A DNA stretch of 64,000 bases. It comes from Clostridiales bacterium. GTDB lineage: Bacteria > Bacillota > Clostridia > Saccharofermentanales > Saccharofermentanaceae. The notes below the pieces were generated by a model. The model did not search any database. It worked only from the letters and a program-made list of their open reading frames with translations, and was not told where the DNA came from. Positions 23,358-38,310 of this stretch are shown piece by piece (within the stretch, counting starts at the first letter, position 1; each line of letters begins with the position of its first letter). The stretch lies in assembly GCA_017513085.1 (NCBI GenBank), contig JAFWDK010000008.1, positions 9,000-72,999 on the forward strand, written 5' to 3'. A program made the translations under genes and the position numbers.

Positions 23358-23433
23358 TGGTGCCCAGAGTCGGAATCGAACCAACGACACGGGGATTTTC
23401 AGTCCCCTGCTCTACCGACTGAGCTATCTGGGC
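23358..23433 (-). tRNA. tRNA-Phe (anticodon GAA), CCA encoded
   Basis: The reverse complement reads GCCCAGATAGCTCAGTCGGTAGAGCAGGGGACTGAAAATCCCCGTGTCGTTGGTTCGATTCCGACTCTGGGCACCA. It has a 7-bp acceptor stem, anticodon loop CTGAAAA and a GTTCGATTC T-loop. Confidence 0.95.
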
Positions 23434-23467
23434 AAATGATAATCGGTCCAAAATGGACCGATTATCT

Positions 23468-23544
23468 TGGCGACGCAGAAGGGGCTCGAACCCTCGACCT
23501 CCAGCGTGACAGGCTGGCATTCTAACCAACTGAACTACTGCGCC
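23468..23544 (-). tRNA. tRNA-Asp (anticodon GTC), CCA encoded
   Basis: The reverse complement reads GGCGCAGTAGTTCAGTTGGTTAGAATGCCAGCCTGTCACGCTGGAGGTCGAGGGTTCGAGCCCCTTCTGCGTCGCCA. The anticodon loop is CTGTCAC. Confidence 0.95.
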
Positions 23545-23548
23545 GTAA

Positions 23549-23624
23549 TGGTGGAAGATACAGGGCTCGAACCTGTGACCCTCTGCTTGTAAGGCAGATG
23601 CTCTCCCAGCTGAGCTAATCTTCC
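23549..23624 (-). tRNA. tRNA-Val (anticodon TAC), CCA encoded
   Basis: The reverse complement reads GGAAGATTAGCTCAGCTGGGAGAGCATCTGCCTTACAAGCAGAGGGTCACAGGTTCGAGCCCTGTATCTTCCACCA. The anticodon loop is CTTACAA. Confidence 0.95.
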
Positions 23625-35237: not shown

Positions 35238-36200
35238 ATGCCGATCATTACCATTTCCCGTCAGATGGGCAGCCTCGGCGACGAAGTCGCACAAGCTCTT
35301 TCCAGTAAGCTTGGCTGGGAATTGATCACAAGAGACCTTCTTATGGAGCGGTTCTTTCCGGACAGCAATCCGGAGCAAAGGCAAAGTCTTGCAGAGAGCG
35401 CGAAATTCTATTTATCCGAATACAAAGACGGTAAGACTTTCCGAGAAGTACTGGAGTCCTCTCTTCTTGATCTGGCGCAGCATCAATCTGCAGTACTGCT
35501 CGGATTCGGTTCCCAGATCTTCTTTTCAGACTATGACAGCGCCATCAACGTCCGCATCGTCGCGCCGAATGACGTCCGTCTCAGCAGGATACAAAGACAG
35601 TTTCACATGACCGAACAAGCCGCGCAAGCGCTTTTGGAATCAACGGACAGAAAACACAAGCGTTTTGTCTCGCACGTATTCTCTGCTGATTCTTCCGATG
35701 TGTCACTTTATCACCTTGTCCTGAATACTGCCTATCTTTCCGTAGACGAATGTGTGGCAGCGATCCTTGCTACCCACAACGAGCATGCGCTCCGTGTCCG
35801 TATCAAGGATGAAACCAAAAGAGAGGGCGCGTACGATCACCAGAAAGATCTTCCTGTTTTTAAGAATCCTTCTGAAGCCGAATTTGCGCGCATTCTCGAC
35901 ATGTACCATATTGACTGGAAATATGAACCGAAGACCTTCCCGGTAGAGTGGGACAGCGAAGGCAATGTAACCCTGGCGTTCAGTCCGGATTTCTATCTGA
36001 CAAGATTTGACACCTATCTGGAACTGACCACCATGGATCAGAAATATGTTACGAAGAAAAACAAAAAGCTGAAGAAAGTCCGCGAACTCTATCCCGGCAC
36101 ACACATTAAGATCGTTTACAAGAAAGATTTTCTGGAATTGGTGGAACGTCTGAAGAGTTTTGACGCACCGCCTGCCGCATCCGACGATAACGAAAAGTAA
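35238..36200 (+). CDS. Cytidylate-kinase-like (AAA/P-loop-like) family protein with an extra ~130-aa C-terminal domain
   Basis: MPIITISRQMGSLGDEVAQALSSKLGWELITRDLL is the cytidylate_kin2 family N-terminus. The C-terminus EFARILDMYHIDWKYEPKTFPVEW..SPDFYLTRFDTYLELTT is a separate conserved-looking module. The RBS is AAAGGAGGTCTGATGC. Confidence 0.7.
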   Translation: MPIITISRQMGSLGDEVAQALSSKLGWELITRDLLMERFFPDSNPEQRQSLAESAKFYLSEYKDGKTFREVLESSLLDLAQHQSAVLLGFGSQIFFSDYDSAINVRIVAPNDVRLSRIQRQFHMTEQAAQALLESTDRKHKRFVSHVFSADSSDVSLYHLVLNTAYLSVDECVAAILATHNEHALRVRIKDETKREGAYDHQKDLPVFKNPSEAEFARILDMYHIDWKYEPKTFPVEWDSEGNVTLAFSPDFYLTRFDTYLELTTMDQKYVTKKNKKLKKVRELYPGTHIKIVYKKDFLELVERLKSFDAPPAASDDNEK

Positions 36201-36212
36201 GAGAGGACTACT

Positions 36213-36743
36213 ATGGAGCAGATCACATATAAGAAGATCCTTTATACCCAGGAACAGCTCGCCAGGCGTATCGCCGAACTGGGCAAGACCATCACTTCCG
36301 ATTATCAGGGTGAAGAACTCGTTCTTCTCGGTGTACTGAAAGGTTCTCTCTACTTCTTCACGGACCTGACCCGCGCGATCGATCTTCCTATCGAACTGGA
36401 CATGCTGGCTGTCGGTAATATCCCTGATACGACCAGCACGACCGGAATCGTACGGATCACCAAAGATGTCGATATCAACATTACCGGCAAACATGTCATT
36501 GTAGTGGAGGACATCATCCGTACCGGGCTGACTACCGCTTACCTGCTCCAGACGCTGGAAGCCAGAAGACCGGCGTCTTTGGAAGTCTGCACATTGCTTT
36601 ATAATCCGGATAGACAACTCATTGATCTTCCTGTCAAATATTTCGGCTTCGAGATCGACCGGAGCTGGTTGATCGGATACGGCATGGATGCTTCGGAAAA
36701 AGGAAGGAATCTCCCCTTCATTGCCGAACTGGAACACAAATAA
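36213..36743 (+). CDS. hpt: Hypoxanthine phosphoribosyltransferase
   Basis: LLGVLKGSLYFFTDLTRAI..KHVIVVEDIIRTGLT (PRPP-binding)..GFEIDRSWLIGYGMD. Confidence 0.92.
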   Translation: MEQITYKKILYTQEQLARRIAELGKTITSDYQGEELVLLGVLKGSLYFFTDLTRAIDLPIELDMLAVGNIPDTTSTTGIVRITKDVDINITGKHVIVVEDIIRTGLTTAYLLQTLEARRPASLEVCTLLYNPDRQLIDLPVKYFGFEIDRSWLIGYGMDASEKGRNLPFIAELEHK

Positions 36744-36761
36744 ATCTATTTCCCTAATAGC

Positions 36762-36792
36762 AAAAGGTGGTCTCATAATGAAACCACCTTTT
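36762..36792. terminator. Bidirectional intrinsic terminator (hpt on +, candidate RNA on -)
   Basis: AAAAGGTGGT (36762-36771) and ACCACCTTTT (36783-36792) form a 10-bp perfect stem with an 11-nt loop. The A-tract on one side and T-tract on the other give a U-tail on both strands. Confidence 0.75.
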
Positions 36793-36818
36793 ATATAAAG
36801 CCTGAGGACAAATTAAAA

Positions 36819-37410
36819 GCTCCAGCGAACCAATCTCACTTCCAATTCCTACGGCCACCCTTTATTATCTGCGAACCTTCAAGATCCTGCTCAACCTGTC
36901 TTCGCGGAATTACTCACCACATGAAGCTGTGCCTTTCCAACCGACCCGAACCCGAAATGTTGTCGTCTCCGAAACCACCCTTTCCATTACCTCTGCTGCA
37001 TCTGCCTGAACTGATTGCCCCATGCTACCAATCCGGTCTCCGATCCAGTTTTTGCAACTTACTCAGTTATGGTCCGTCTCCTACCATCTCTTCGTAATCT
37101 CGACTCCCCGCTTGCTGATTCCCATCATCATCGGTTCATCTAAATCAAGGTTCCAACCTGACCCGCGACTTGTGTCCGCCCTCGCGTACCGTCAATCGCT
37201 GTCCGCTCTCCACTGCTTGCTACTATGGCTCAAACGGTTCCGGTTTTTGCTGTTCCTATTCGATCTCACCGGATCGCCTTCAAAAACGCATCCACCATCG
37301 TTTCCTGACCACTCTCTGGTCTTTCTGTTTTTTTCAACCTCGCCTTGTGTATTCATCAGTGGCGGTTCTCCGTTTGGGAAATGGTGTTAACTCGTATTCC
37401 CTGGAGCTAA
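36819..37410 (-). ncRNA. Candidate large structured non-coding RNA, family unassigned (size class of ROOL/OLE-type ornate RNAs)
   Basis: There is no credible ORF. A near-consensus promoter lies immediately upstream. The 5' GCUCCAG (37407-37401) is complementary to the 3' CUGGAGC (36825-36819). Many local hairpins are present. The transcript strand is purine/U-rich, and a terminator lies about 30 nt downstream. See the findings. Confidence 0.6.
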
Positions 37411-37414
37411 TTTA

Positions 37415-37442
37415 AGTATAGCACGCAATAAACGTATGTCAA
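37415..37442 (-). promoter_or_regulatory. Sigma-A promoter with extended -10 driving the candidate RNA
   Basis: On the minus strand: TTGACA (37442-37437), 16 nt ending in TGc, TATACT (37420-37415). The closing-stem arm GCTCCAG starts 7 nt after the -10. Confidence 0.7.
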
Positions 37443-37687
37443 CACCTTCCACCGCGAAATGCGCAAACTTTTTTATTTCGTTGTGCAACATGCACAAAAC
37501 GATACGTGCTGTTTTTGAAAAGCACCCTTGCATCTTTCAAACTGCGCTACCATCACGGTTTGCGGCTTTCCCTCCATCTTATCTTACCGGTTCACAGCAA
37601 GTGCTTCTGTATCCGTACTACAAAAAAAGTGCGACGATTGTTTACTTTTCGGTCATAATTCCCCACTGTTTCTAACAATACTGTCAC

Positions 37688-37715
37688 TTGGTTTTTCTCA
37701 AAAATCCGTTATAAT
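37688..37715 (+). promoter_or_regulatory. Sigma-A promoter for the 37744 ABC operon
   Basis: TTGGTT (37688-37693), 16 nt, TATAAT (37710-37715). It lies 28 nt upstream of the ATG. Confidence 0.55.
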
Positions 37716-37743
37716 TGTTTTAGTTTAGCATTGGGAGTGTTGT

Positions 37744-38310
37744 ATGAAAGTCAAGCTTTTAAAACTCAATCGTGGTCTGATCCTTCTGATCATCGCAATC
37801 ATCGGCGTGCTGATCTACTTAACTGCCGAGACAATTGATGCCAACAAGAAAAAACAAGAAGTTCGCACTCTTGCTTCTGAGATCATCACGAAAACACAGG
37901 AGTGTATCGTAATCGTTAGCGACATTGACGACGTCATGAATTCACGCACTTTTATCTATCACAATAATTCTGACTTTAATGAAAACAAAGAGAATAATTA
38001 TTCCAATATTGACATACTGAAACCCTATCTTTACCAGGACGATCGTTTGTACCAGGAAATTTCAGAACTTGGCAATGATCTTTCTACAAGCGCATTTGTA
38101 AATGATAATGTGATCATTAAGAGTCTGGTTTCCAGAATTCCCTACGAAACCAGCGTCATGTATTACAACAACACTGCCAAAGTTACGATACGCGTGAATA
38201 ATGAATATATATCCGCTGATAATACCCAGAATAGTATGACGTCTACCGACGAGCTCGGCTTTGAGTATATAGACGACAGATGGCAACTGGTCAGTTATGA
38301 GATTTATTGA
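37744..38310 (+). CDS. Hypothetical membrane-anchored protein (single N-terminal TM)
   Basis: MKVKLLKLNRGLILLIIAIIGVLIYL anchor, then an Asn/Asp/Ile-rich ectodomain. It is the first gene of the operon with the ABC ATPase and permease. The RBS is GGGAGTGTTGT. Confidence 0.6.
   Translation: MKVKLLKLNRGLILLIIAIIGVLIYLTAETIDANKKKQEVRTLASEIITKTQECIVIVSDIDDVMNSRTFIYHNNSDFNENKENNYSNIDILKPYLYQDDRLYQEISELGNDLSTSAFVNDNVIIKSLVSRIPYETSVMYYNNTAKVTIRVNNEYISADNTQNSMTSTDELGFEYIDDRWQLVSYEIY

What the first reader, a model, noticed from the sequence alone, without database searches (positions are those of the whole stretch)
36762..37442. Self-contained promoter-to-terminator unit encoding a ~590-nt, hairpin-dense, end-paired RNA of unassigned family
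Seen directly: the hpt stop (36743) and the next credible CDS (37744) are 1 kb apart. Across 36.82-37.41 kb the + strand is strongly pyrimidine-rich. I counted 35% and 28% purines in the two 60-nt lines starting at 37021 and 37081. The minus-strand transcript would therefore be G/A/U-rich and able to form G-U pairs, which the + strand could not. On the minus strand a near-consensus promoter, TTGACA-16 nt-(TGc)TATACT, sits at 37442-37415. Seven nt after the -10, GCUCCAG (37407-37401) begins. It is exactly complementary to CUGGAGC at 36825-36819, so a terminal helix would close a 589-nt domain. Inside it I can fold many local stems by eye: GGGAA..UUCCC next to the closing helix, GACCA-GAGAG-UGGUC, CGAUC-CGGUGA-GAUCG, CGCGA..UCGCG, AUGGU..ACCAU, CACA..UGUG, GCGAA..UUCGC enclosing UUGAG..CUUGA, and a twice-repeated AAAGGGUGG motif. 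About 30 nt after the 3' arm lies a 10-bp A/T-flanked bidirectional terminator (36762-36792). The only ORFs here (37022..37390 and 37170..37415, + strand) lack an RBS and are Leu/Ser/Pro low-complexity. Inference: this is an independently transcribed large structured RNA. Its length falls in the range of the large ornate bacterial RNAs (ROOL, OLE), which occur in Clostridia and rumen or gut Firmicutes. I cannot assign it to any family from memory, so it may be a new class.
Basis: partly seen in the sequence, partly recalled or inferred. Interest (0 to 1): 0.88.

Follow-up and report, generated by a model that had tools for sequence, protein, structure and literature searches.

The report
New large structured RNA beside hpt
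This is a real gene for a ~590-nucleotide, intricately folded non-coding RNA that matches no catalogued RNA family and is conserved next to the hpt gene in dozens of uncultured rumen and anaerobic-digester Clostridia; its function is unknown.

Summary
On the minus strand, window 37442-36762 contains a near-consensus promoter, a 591-nt purine-rich non-coding stretch closed by an 8-bp terminal helix, and a hairpin/U-tract terminator.

I found 50+ distinct homologs, 404-624 nt long. They come from 30 species-representative MAGs, further metagenome contigs and two more divergent branches. Wherever the flank is visible, the element is single-copy and convergent with hpt.

A 158-pair model derived from the alignment is 87% base-paired, against 26-46% when partners are slid. 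It has 69 compensatory pairs against 24-38, and 0 of 500 shuffles reach the observed values. Long-range helices pass the same test alone. Helices that never vary in the main family (P1, P5, P6) show compensatory changes in the divergent branches. G.U cells outnumber A.C cells 5:1, which assigns the structure to the minus strand.

No ORF is conserved and substitutions show no codon periodicity. Rfam 15 gives no credible hit for three divergent members. Phage and plasmid searches and literature searches found nothing.

Function and expression remain untested, and every known host is uncultured.

The parts
37482..37496 (.). Conserved palindrome TGTGCA-N3-TGCACA, 73 nt upstream of the RNA start. 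It is a candidate transcription-factor site in the divergent promoter region.
   Evidence: Present at 69-76 nt upstream in the window, L033 and L106 types, and in many long-form members. It is imperfect in L030 and lies further upstream in L104.
37415..37442 (-). Sigma-70-type promoter: -35 TTGACA (37442-37437), 16-nt spacer, extended TG (37423-37422), -10 TATACT (37420-37415).
   Evidence: 11 of 12 matches. All 48 unique main-family homologs keep 10-12 of 12 matches plus TG, with the same spacing to the RNA start.
36818..37408 (-). The conserved structured RNA, 591 nt. RNA position n corresponds to window coordinate 37409-n. It begins AGCUCCAGGGAAU and ends GGUUCGCUGGAGCU.
   Evidence: nhmmer and alignment of 50+ homologs. 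Covariation tests. No conserved ORF.
37401..37408 (-). P1 5' arm (AGCUCCAG, RNA 1-8). It continues into GAAU (10-13), which pairs with GUUC near the 3' end.
   Evidence: Invariant in the main family. The inner pair G-C becomes G.U in L102 and A-U in L106.
36818..36825 (-). P1 3' arm (CUGGAGCU, RNA 584-591).
37210..37362 (-). 5' domain (RNA 47-199), closed by CCACUG/CAGUGG. It holds the hairpins GACCA-GAGAG-UGGUC (88-102) and 131-150. RNA ~103-178 is absent from the 428-nt forms.
   Evidence: Helices 47-52/194-199, 58-60/186-188, 70-73/170-173, 113-115/165-167 and 131-137/144-150 all show compensatory changes.
37165..37206 (-). Invariant core (RNA 203-244): the P5 5' strand GCGGAC, then P6 GCGAUU...AGUCGC, which encloses GACGG, a small hairpin and ACA.
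   Evidence: 34 of 42 positions are invariant in 36 sequences. P5 has CG<->UA in alignment A1 and becomes ACGAGC/GCUCGU in L102/L104. P6 shows two compensated pairs in L106. The inner hairpin changes CGC/GCG -> CGG/CCG -> UGG/CCA -> UGUC/GACA.
36954..37151 (-). Dispensable peripheral arms (RNA ~258-455). They are absent from the ~404-nt forms, and RNA ~345-448 is absent from the 428-nt forms. The long arm ends in hairpin 378-398.
   Evidence: Size classes. Helices 319-325/449-455, 333-338/433-439, 351-355/419-423 and 378-385/391-398 are supported.
36899..36949 (-). 3' hairpin domain (RNA 460-510) with invariant UGGAA and AGUAA strands flanking a covarying 8-bp hairpin (476-493).
   Evidence: Pairs 466-468/502-504 and 476-483/486-493 covary. 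The resemblance of AGUA/GAA to a loop-E/sarcin-ricin motif is my inference from memory and was not tested.
36851..36876 (-). P5 3' strand GUUCGC (RNA 533-538) and the invariant junction AGAUAAUAAAGGG..CCG (539-558).
   Evidence: Invariant columns. AAAGGG is kept in all divergent branches.
36793..36817 (-). Single-stranded 3' tail between P1 and the terminator. It carries the conserved motif UUUGUCCUC (36812-36804).
   Evidence: UUUGUCCUC(A) in the long forms and UUUGUCCC in the 428-nt forms.
36762..36792 (.). Bidirectional intrinsic terminator shared with the convergent hpt gene.
   Evidence: Sequence and fold. A hairpin plus U-tract is present after the RNA in every homolog, with unrelated stem sequences.

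Best explanation
Window 37408-36818 (minus strand) is the gene for a stand-alone, trans-acting, large structured non-coding RNA of a previously undescribed family.

**Shown:**
- The flanking sequences are a conserved strong promoter and a conserved intrinsic terminator, with no downstream gene on that strand.
- The 5' and 3' ends zip together (P1 and its extensions) and enclose three domains.
- There is an invariant core: P5/P6 with GAUUGACGG...ACAAGUCGC, the CCGCCAC strand, the AGAUAAUAAAGGG..CCG junction and the UGGAA/AGUAA loop.
- Peripheral arms are dispensable. Natural variants of 404, 428, 554 and 584-624 nt lack or gain whole arms but keep the core.

**Inferred:**
- The RNA is transcribed abundantly from its own promoter, starting at about 37408, and is probably trimmed to or stabilised by the P1-closed form.
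- The function lies in the folded core rather than in base-pairing to targets or in regulating a neighbouring gene.
- The most likely mode of action is as the RNA subunit or scaffold of a ribonucleoprotein. A ribozyme or a self-assembling RNA is a less likely alternative. This follows the pattern of OLE and raiA, the other large orphan RNAs of Bacillota.
For: **Conservation**
- Homologs occur in 30 of 185,579 species-representative genomes, all uncultured Clostridia from rumen or anaerobic digesters.
- There are 26 further metagenome hits and two more divergent branches.
- There is one match per genome contig. The RNA lies 60-130 nt from the hpt stop, convergent, wherever the flank is visible.
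- 106 of 309 gap-free alignment columns are invariant across hosts whose hpt proteins are only 64-90% identical. Sequence beyond the promoter is not alignable.

**Structure**
- 158-pair model: 87.4% of cells paired against 26-46% slid. 69 pairs have compensatory change against 24-38. Covariation score is 0.206 against 0.03-0.08. 0 of 500 shuffles reach the observed value on any of five measures.
- The 87 long-range pairs alone: 90.8% against 27-46%, and 33 compensatory pairs against 6-14.
- Hold-out sequences: 84-97% paired for close relatives, 70-72% for the 428-nt forms and 56-59% for the branch at ~50% identity, each above its slid controls.
- P1, P5, P6 and the P6 hairpin show compensatory changes in the divergent branches.
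- Strand: 650 G.U cells against 129 A.C cells.

**Transcription unit**
- Promoter and terminator are conserved in all members, while terminator sequences differ.

**Not coding**
- Stops occur in all frames. No ORF is conserved in position or frame. Variable columns fall 128/135/134 by position mod 3.

**Not catalogued**
- Rfam scans were negative. ARAGORN found nothing. No literature description was found.
Against: - There is no direct evidence of transcription, RNA ends or abundance.
- All hosts are uncultured, so nothing can be tested genetically at present.
- Single-sequence folding energy is only modestly better than shuffles (z = -2.4 from 20 shuffles).
- The sequences fall into a few clades, so many compensatory 'cells' trace back to few events. 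A naive all-against-all scan gives 391 spuriously covarying column pairs.
- The structure was derived from the same alignment it was first scored on. The slide controls, the hold-outs and the divergent branches mitigate this but do not remove it.
- Some parts are uncertain: the 5'-proximal region (RNA 14-45), the closing helices of the middle domain (73-75% paired) and the inner hairpins of RNA 270-305 (33-52% paired).
- The mode of action (RNP, ribozyme or assembly) is pure inference.
- Constant linkage to hpt could mean a local function that I cannot exclude.
Confidence: 0.85

Rival explanations
1. It is a highly diverged member of an already known large RNA family (OLE, ROOL, GOLLD, RNase P RNA, tmRNA or SRP RNA) that the Rfam models fail to recognise in this lineage.
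For: - The size (~600 nt), the Bacillota anaerobe host and the many invariant nucleotides recall OLE.
- The rumen origin and the size recall ROOL (PMC5737381).
- Closure by a terminal helix with modular peripheral arms recalls RNase P RNA.
- I could not scan whole host genomes to show that canonical RNase P, tmRNA and SRP genes exist elsewhere.
Against: - cmscan with permissive filters and E up to 10 gave no hit to any of these families for three members that share only ~50-60% identity.
- ARAGORN finds no tmRNA.
- The invariant motifs (AGCUCCAGGGAAU, CCGCCAC, GAUUGACGG, ACAAGUCGC, AGAUAAUAAAGGG) do not include the RNase P GGAAAGUCC-type P4 strands as I remember them. I did not test that separately.
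- ROOL has few highly conserved nucleotides and sits near tRNAs or prophages in three phyla. This RNA has 106 invariant columns, a fixed chromosomal locus and one narrow clade.
- No oapA-like gene follows the RNA, from my own knowledge of OLE loci.
Confidence: 0.04
2. It is a cis- or locally acting regulatory element. It might be a long leader or riboswitch, an antisense or convergent-transcription regulator of hpt, or part of the control region of the divergent 188-aa/ABC-transporter operon.
For: - It is adjacent to and convergent with hpt in every locus where the flank is visible.
- It shares a bidirectional terminator with hpt.
- A conserved palindrome lies in the divergent promoter region.
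- The transcript is purine-rich and sits next to a purine-salvage gene.
Against: - No gene follows it on its own strand. The transcript ends at a strong terminator facing the hpt stop.
- It does not overlap hpt.
- The gene on the promoter side varies: an ABC operon, an MS-channel gene, a radical-SAM gene or an Sm_multidrug_ex gene. The RNA stays constant.
- A size of 400-620 nt with about 25 helices and 106 invariant columns is far beyond known leaders.
- Gene order is conserved across the whole clade, so the linkage may be inheritance only.
Confidence: 0.06
3. It is a decayed protein-coding gene, or an mRNA for one or more small proteins. The purine-rich sense strand would then reflect a former or current coding function.
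For: - Purine loading of the sense strand is typical of Firmicute mRNAs (my own knowledge).
- A 54-codon ATG ORF exists in the window at 37356-37192, with a GGAG 11 nt upstream.
Against: - There are 7-12 stop codons in each sense frame.
- The 54-codon ORF is already broken in same-species strains L004, L009 and L002. No ORF keeps its position, frame or length across members.
- Variable columns show no 3-nt periodicity: 128/135/134 of 197.
- Substitutions are compensatory in helices.
- Insertions and deletions remove whole helical arms rather than respecting a reading frame.
Confidence: 0.02
4. It is the RNA component of a mobile or defence element. Candidates are an omega or bridge RNA of an IS element, a retron msr/msd, a group II intron remnant, or a phage-borne ornate RNA such as many ROOL and GOLLD copies.
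For: - Large ornate RNAs are often phage- or element-borne (PMC5737381).
- One hit came from a contig flagged as viral.
Against: - It is single-copy at one syntenic chromosomal site in every genome.
- No transposase, reverse transcriptase, TnpB/IscB or integrase is next to it in the main family.
- There is no similarity in 50,697 phage or 72,556 plasmid records.
- The 'viral' contig is a chimera that holds only 77 nt of the RNA fused to unrelated coding sequence.
- Rfam HEARO, group II intron and retron-type models did not hit.
Confidence: 0.02

Closest known systems
OLE (ornate, large, extremophilic) RNA, Rfam RF01071
   Same: It is about 600 nt and occurs in anaerobic or extremophilic Bacillota. 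It is a stand-alone non-coding gene with an intricate multi-helix fold and many strictly conserved nucleotides, and its biochemical function is unknown (abstracts of PMC9723947 and PMC12054373).
   Different: - No sequence or structure match to the Rfam model for three members.
- No oapA-type membrane-protein gene follows the RNA in the same orientation (my own knowledge of OLE loci; gene calls).
- It is restricted to one uncultured clade rather than spread across many Bacillota.
ROOL (rumen-originating, ornate, large) RNA, Rfam RF03087
   Same: It averages 581 nt, was first seen in cow-rumen metagenomes, has many multistem junctions, and has no known function (PMC5737381).
   Different: - ROOL has only about 10 highly conserved nucleotides, lies near tRNAs and in prophages, and occurs in three phyla.
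- This RNA has 106 invariant columns, a fixed hpt-adjacent chromosomal site, no tRNA or phage context and no Rfam hit.
GOLLD RNA, Rfam RF01998
   Same: It is a large, ornate bacterial RNA of unknown function.
   Different: GOLLD is larger, is often prophage- or tRNA-associated, and forms RNA-only multimers (PMC12286853 abstract). No Rfam match here, and the genomic context differs.
raiA motif RNA, Rfam RF03072
   Same: It is an independently transcribed, abundant, structured orphan RNA of Bacillota, including Clostridia, and acts in trans (abstracts of PMC10861870 and PMC11706538).
   Different: It is much shorter (about 200 nt, from my own knowledge) and occurs in more than 2,500 species. No Rfam match here.
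Bacterial RNase P RNA
   Same: The architectural logic is similar: the 5' and 3' ends pair in a terminal helix, the core is invariant, and the peripheral helical arms are lineage-specific and dispensable.
   Different: No match to RNase P models in Rfam. The universally conserved P4-region sequences, as I remember them, are absent. I could not test whether the host genomes have a canonical rnpB gene.

Membership tests
OLE RNA (RF01071) | Match to the family covariance model (conserved sequence plus structure). | tested here: not met
   No OLE hit at the gathering threshold or at E up to 10 with permissive filters, for the window, L104 and L033 members.
OLE RNA (RF01071) | An oapA (OLE-associated membrane protein) gene immediately downstream in the same orientation. 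This feature is from my own knowledge. | tested here: not met
   Downstream of the RNA lies a terminator and then the convergent hpt gene in every locus. The 188-aa single-pass membrane protein is upstream and divergent, poorly conserved, and absent in L102/L106-type loci.
ROOL RNA (RF03087) | Match to the family covariance model. | tested here: not met
   No hit.
ROOL RNA (RF03087) | Frequent location near tRNA genes or in prophages, and few highly conserved nucleotides (PMC5737381). | tested here: not met
   No tRNA within 36000-38000. No phage similarity. The site is a fixed hpt-adjacent one. 106 columns are invariant.
GOLLD (RF01998), HEARO (RF02033), raiA (RF03072) | Match to the family covariance model. 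| tested here: not met
   No hits.
RNase P RNA / tmRNA / SRP RNA / 6S RNA (housekeeping RNAs) | Match to the Rfam models. For tmRNA, also a tRNA-like domain and a tag reading frame. | tested here: not met
   No Rfam hits. ARAGORN finds no tmRNA.
RNase P RNA / tmRNA / SRP RNA / 6S RNA (housekeeping RNAs) | The host genome lacks any other copy, so that this RNA would be the replacement. | not testable with these tools
   Whole MAGs were not available.
Riboswitch or cis-regulatory leader | Lies in the 5' UTR of a gene on the same strand, whose expression it controls. | tested here: not met
   The RNA is followed by its own terminator and a convergent gene.
Element-borne guide or structural RNAs (omega RNA, bridge RNA, retron, group II intron) | Adjacent element gene (TnpB/IscB, IS110 recombinase, reverse transcriptase), multiple copies or variable location. 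| tested here: not met
   Single copy, one syntenic site, no such neighbours. Phage and plasmid searches were empty.
Structured non-coding RNA gene (generic) | Base-paired architecture maintained by compensatory substitutions beyond controls. | tested here: met
Structured non-coding RNA gene (generic) | Its own conserved promoter and terminator, and no conserved ORF. | tested here: met
Structured non-coding RNA gene (generic) | A detectable transcript of the predicted size and strand. | not testable with these tools
   No RNA-seq data were available. The chimeric contigs are only a hint of high read coverage.

The most novel reading that the evidence does not exclude
This is a new class of large bacterial RNA whose invariant core performs sophisticated biochemistry of its own. 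It could be a new natural ribozyme, or an RNA that self-assembles into a higher-order particle as ROOL, GOLLD and OLE were recently shown to do. It would be specific to an abundant, wholly uncultured clade of rumen and digester Clostridia. The natural 404-nt minimal variants would already define the functional core.
Probability: 0.25. Interest if true: 0.92.

Novelty: categorically new. Interest (0 to 1): 0.82.

Why it matters
**Rarity.** Bacterial non-coding RNAs of this size and complexity are very rare. Apart from rRNA, group I and II introns, RNase P and tmRNA, only a few orphan classes are known (OLE, GOLLD, ROOL, HEARO, raiA). Each has proved biochemically unusual, as a membrane RNP, an RNA-only nanocage or a nuclease guide.

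**Quality of this candidate.** A further class is a prime candidate for new RNA biochemistry when it has about 25 helices, 106 invariant columns, naturally occurring deletion variants that outline a minimal core, and its own strongly conserved promoter.

**Where it lives.** Its hosts are uncultured Clostridia that recur in buffalo, yak, sheep, goat and reindeer rumen and in anaerobic digesters. It may therefore be relevant to the physiology of organisms that matter for fibre degradation and biogas.

**What can be done now.** The 404-nt and 428-nt natural variants and the three divergent branches give immediate constructs for structure determination and a ready alignment for an Rfam entry.

Tried and rejected
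1. **Phage and plasmid similarity.** blastn in distant mode against both collections found nothing.
2. **Same-species contigs.** They are 98.5-100% identical and useless for covariation.
3. **Strict gapless all-against-all helix scan.** It found only 6 helices because of indels in the variable arms. I replaced it with per-size-class RNAalifold.
4. **RNAalifold on the mixed-length alignment.** It recovered only the core.
5. **A CCGCC/GGCGG pseudoknot.** I proposed pairing between the invariant CCGCC (RNA 44-48) and GGCGG in the P6 loop. I rejected it because GGCGG is replaced in the L102, L104 and L106 branches while CCGCC stays.
6. **Covariation search for pseudoknots or tertiary pairs.** It was swamped by clade structure: 391 column pairs passed, of which 12 were in the model. 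No call was possible.
7. **The 'core-only' metagenome and viral hits.** I first read them as a divergent subfamily or as phage carriage. They are chimeric contigs with identical RNA fragments fused to unrelated genes.
8. **Sample type of the chimeric contigs.** A literature look-up of the sample identifiers found nothing.
9. **Search for a cultured host.** A second hpt homolog search returned only MAGs and metagenome proteins.
10. **Covariance model.** Not attempted. The RNA exceeds the 400-column limit of the model builder, and only in-session sequence could have been searched.
CGCGA/UCGCG, GCGAA/UUCGC and UUGAG/CUUGA, and the AAAGGGUGG repeat, were rejected.
Full report
**1. What is at the coordinates**

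- hpt is confirmed: TIGR01203 scores 164.6 bits against a cutoff of 150. It ends at 36743. The next gene with homolog support starts at 37744.
- Gene callers left this ~1 kb empty on all 19 public contigs of the same species.
- The promoter scan finds TTGACA-16-TATACT with an upstream TG at 37442-37415. This is 11 of 12 matches and the only minus-strand site in 1.5 kb.
- GCUCCAG (37407-37401) and CUGGAGC (36825-36819) are exact complements.
- The + strand purine fractions are 35.0% and 28.3% in the two quoted lines. The transcript would be G199/A180/U110/C100.
- The hairpin at 36792-36762 folds strongly and is followed by U4. The simple terminator scan missed it.
- All three sense frames are full of stops.
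- Folding energy alone is unimpressive: z = -2.4 for the minus strand and -1.3 for the plus strand.

**2. It is not in the catalogues**

- Rfam 15 (4,227 families) gives only three tRNAs elsewhere in the window at gathering thresholds.
- With permissive filters and E up to 10, the region gives only chance-level hits on the terminator hairpin.
- Two very different family members found later, L104 and L033, also give nothing.
- ARAGORN finds no tRNA or tmRNA.
- Phage and plasmid collections hold nothing similar.
- Full-text searches turned up no description. I searched for large orphan RNAs, rumen and Clostridia motifs, and hpt-associated motifs, and checked three Breaker/Weinberg discovery papers.

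**3. Relatives**

- Same-species contigs are 98.5-100% identical. I therefore walked outward using hpt homologs and their contigs.
- The gene-free gap persists at 90, 86, 81, 78, 70 and 69% hpt identity. The gap DNA aligns over exactly the promoter-to-terminator interval, with long invariant blocks between variable segments. Sequence beyond the promoter does not align.
- I scanned one genome per species (185,579 species) with a core pattern that leaves the stem positions free. It returned 30 true hits and 2 chance hits with the wrong spacing.
- All 30 are uncultured Clostridia MAGs. They come from water-buffalo, yak, sheep, goat and reindeer rumen and from anaerobic digesters. NCBI labels them Clostridiales, Oscillospiraceae, Clostridiaceae or 'Mageeibacillus sp.'.
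- The metagenome scan added 26 true hits, including 8 new full-length variants.
- In every locus where the flank is visible, the RNA is convergent with hpt and lies 60-130 nt from its stop. There is one match per genome contig.
- The gene on the promoter side varies: an ABC-transporter operon, a mechanosensitive-channel gene, a radical-SAM gene or an Sm_multidrug_ex gene.

**4. Size classes and the edge of the family**

- Unique sequences fall into four classes: 584-611 nt, 554 nt, ~404 nt and ~428 nt.
- The 404-nt forms lack RNA ~258-455. The 428-nt forms lack ~103-178 and ~345-448.
- Both terminal arms (AGCUCCAGGGAAU and GGUUCGCUGGAGC) are invariant in all 40 sequences first collected, although they were not part of the search pattern.
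- hpt loci at 62-63% identity include MAGs labelled Saccharofermentans sp. They still have a 780-950-nt gap holding a clearly homologous RNA of 559-624 nt at only ~50% identity. The exact pattern had missed it.
- A third branch (L106-108, 600 nt) is more divergent still.
- One lineage (L109-111) has hpt followed after 27 nt by a convergent aminotransferase gene, with no RNA at this locus.
- A second hpt search shows that the divergent branch belongs to a very large, wholly uncultured clade. I found no cultured host.

**5. Structure**

- RNAalifold on the long forms gives a model in which the 5' and 3' ends zip together and enclose three domains.
  - Terminal zipper: P1 (1-8/584-591), GAAU/GUUC, and further pairs up to 45/550.
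  - 5' domain: closed by 47-52/194-199.
  - Central core: P5 (203-208/533-538) and P6 (210-215/239-244), with a small hairpin inside P6.
  - Large middle domain: 246-526, including a long arm that ends in hairpin 378-398.
  - 3' hairpin domain: 460-510.
- Per-helix counts show several pair types in most helices.
- On the 36-sequence alignment A1, the 158 pairs score as follows.

| Measure | Model | Partners slid 1-3 columns |
|---|---|---|
| Cells paired | 87.4% | 26-46% |
| Pairs with compensatory change | 69 | 24-38 |
| Covariation score | 0.206 | 0.03-0.08 |

- 0 of 500 shuffles reach the observed value on any of the five measures.
- Local hairpins are easy to get right, so I repeated the test on the 87 pairs more than 60 columns apart. 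They give 90.8% against 27-46%, 33 against 6-14 compensatory pairs, and 0.220 against 0.03-0.08.
- Sequences not used to derive the model also fit it. Close relatives are 84-97% paired, the 428-nt forms 70-72%, and the ~50%-identical branch 56-59% under a crude alignment. Each is above its slid controls.
- Helices that never vary in the main family are settled by the divergent branches:
  - The inner P1 pair goes G-C, then G.U (L102), then A-U (L106).
  - P5 GCGGAC/GUUCGC becomes ACGAGC/GCUCGU.
  - P6 GCGAUU/AGUCGC becomes GUGGUU/AGCCAC, which is two compensated pairs.
  - The P6 hairpin goes CGC/GCG, CGG/CCG, UGG/CCA, UGUC/GACA.
- G.U cells outnumber A.C cells 650 to 129. The same pairs would be 77% rather than 87% canonical on the other strand, so the structure belongs to the minus-strand transcript.
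- Caveats:
  - The sequences form a few clades, and single-pair covariation is noisy.
  - Some helices are weak: RNA 30-39 with 555-562, 252-261 with 512-520, and the hairpins inside 270-305.
  - In the 428-nt, L030, L102 and L104 forms, a local hairpin after GGGAAUA appears to replace part of the 5'/3' zipper. Examples are CUAGAG/CUCUAG, AUACUG/CAGUAU and CGAAGA/UCUUCG. I saw this by eye in the sequences.

**6.

| Hairpin | Cells paired | Compensatory pairs | Verdict |
|---|---|---|---|
| GACCA/UGGUC | 94% | 1 | supported |
| CGAUC/GAUCG | 96% | 4 | supported |
| AUGGU/ACCAU | 83% | 3 | supported |
| CACA/UGUG | 70% | 4 | supported (part of an 8-bp hairpin) |
| GGGAA/UUCCC | 79% | 0 | ambiguous |
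| CGCGA/UCGCG | outer pair broken in 29 of 36 | 0 | not supported |
| GCGAA/UUCGC | 63% | 0 | not supported |
| UUGAG/CUUGA | 60% | 3 | not supported |

- UCGC belongs to P6, and UUCGC belongs to P5, which is 100% paired.
- Only the 3' AAAGGG of the 'repeated AAAGGGUGG' is conserved.

**7. Coding and mobile-element alternatives**

- No ORF keeps its position, frame or length across members.
- The window's 54-codon ORF is already broken in other strains of the same species.
- Variable columns fall 128/135/134 by position mod 3.
- Indels remove whole helical arms.
- There is no element gene next to the RNA in the main family, no second copy and no phage or plasmid relative.
- The one 'viral' hit and five other short JGI contigs are chimeras. 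Each holds 70-125 nt identical to the L033- or L064-type RNA, fused at different points to unrelated genes.

**8. Transcription unit across the family**

- All 48 unique main-family members keep a promoter with 10-12 of 12 matches, an extended TG and a 16-nt spacer, placed 6-7 nt before AGCUCC.
- The divergent branches keep a weaker promoter at the same distance.
- Every member is followed within 20-45 nt by a strong hairpin and U-tract. The stem sequences are unrelated between lineages, so the function is conserved and the sequence is not.
- A short tail motif (UUUGUCCUC or UUUGUCCC) lies between P1 and the terminator.
- A palindrome TGTGCA-N3-TGCACA lies ~70 nt upstream of the start in all three branches. 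This suggests regulated transcription.

**9. How it most likely works**

- Shown: it is a conserved, self-contained promoter-to-terminator unit. It encodes a non-coding RNA whose multi-domain fold is maintained by selection. The core is invariant and the periphery is dispensable.
- Inferred: it is made as an abundant stable RNA and acts in trans through the folded core. 30 of the 106 invariant columns are unpaired in the model. That is the pattern expected of a protein-, ligand- or RNA-contact surface or of an active site.
- By analogy with OLE and raiA, I think an RNP scaffold or subunit is the most likely role. A ribozyme or a self-assembling RNA is the more exciting minority possibility.
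- The constant hpt linkage is probably inherited gene order, but a local role is not excluded.

**10. Comparison and novelty**

- It works like the large orphan RNAs of Bacillota (OLE, ROOL, GOLLD, raiA). It fails every membership test that I could run for them (see Membership tests).
- ROOL is the obvious suspect for a rumen RNA of this size. By its discoverers' own description it has few conserved nucleotides, a tRNA or prophage context and a multi-phylum range. All three differ here.
- I therefore rate it a new class. The main weaknesses are that expression is untested, the hosts are uncultured, the distribution is narrow and the function is unknown.

Noticed in passing
window 37482-37496 (and the equivalent position in L033, L106, L104, L020, L023 and L026 loci): A 15-bp palindrome TGTGCA-N3-TGCACA lies ~70 nt upstream of the RNA start. 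It sits in the region between the RNA promoter and the divergent 188-aa/ABC operon and is conserved in all three branches of the family. A GTTTCGC-like direct repeat lies between it and the -35 element. It is probably a transcription-factor operator. I did not identify the factor.
   Followed up: partly
L080, L082, L087, L089, L094, L097 (= viral-flagged L101): Six short JGI contigs from only two samples (Ga0116232, Ga0180031) carry 70-125 nt identical to the RNA core. The fragment is fused at different breakpoints to unrelated genes, including an archaeal pilin-like gene and a solute-binding protein gene. These look like assembly chimeras seeded by a very high-coverage sequence. That would fit an abundant RNA in a metatranscriptome, but I could not determine the sample type.
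   Followed up: partly
window 36803-36812: A tail motif UUUGUCCUCA lies between the 3' arm of the terminal helix and the terminator. It is conserved in the long forms, and the 428-nt forms have UUUGUCCC. Its role is unknown. It could be a processing or protein-binding site.
   Followed up: no
window 35238-36200 (+): A 320-aa protein is encoded immediately upstream of hpt in every locus. It has an N-terminal cytidylate-kinase-like domain (PF13189, E = 2e-30). Its ~120-aa C-terminal region has only a weak, sub-threshold resemblance to DUF790 (19 bits against a cutoff of 28.8). It travels with hpt and the RNA, but it is also present in the lineage that lacks the RNA (L109-111).
   Followed up: partly
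L109-L111 (hpt homolog P0153): A related lineage keeps the cytidylate-kinase-like gene and hpt, but hpt is followed after 27 nt by a convergent aminotransferase gene. There is no trace of the RNA within the 3 kb on either side that was held. This is a natural RNA-minus comparison, through either loss or relocation.
   Followed up: partly
window 23361-23624 (-): A cluster of three tRNA genes, the only Rfam gathering-threshold hits in the 64-kb window. It is 13 kb from the RNA and unrelated to it.
   Followed up: no
window 1-64000: The + strand has far more C than G (17,020 against 13,349). This is a strong negative GC skew across the whole window. The RNA gene is therefore on the G-rich strand, while hpt and its neighbours are on the C-rich strand.
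   Followed up: no
window 37744-38310 (+): The divergently transcribed 188-aa protein has an N-terminal membrane helix and no Pfam or NCBIfam family. It evolves fast: 30-40% identity where hpt is ~90%. It heads the ABC-transporter operon. It is absent next to the RNA in the divergent branches.
   Followed up: partly
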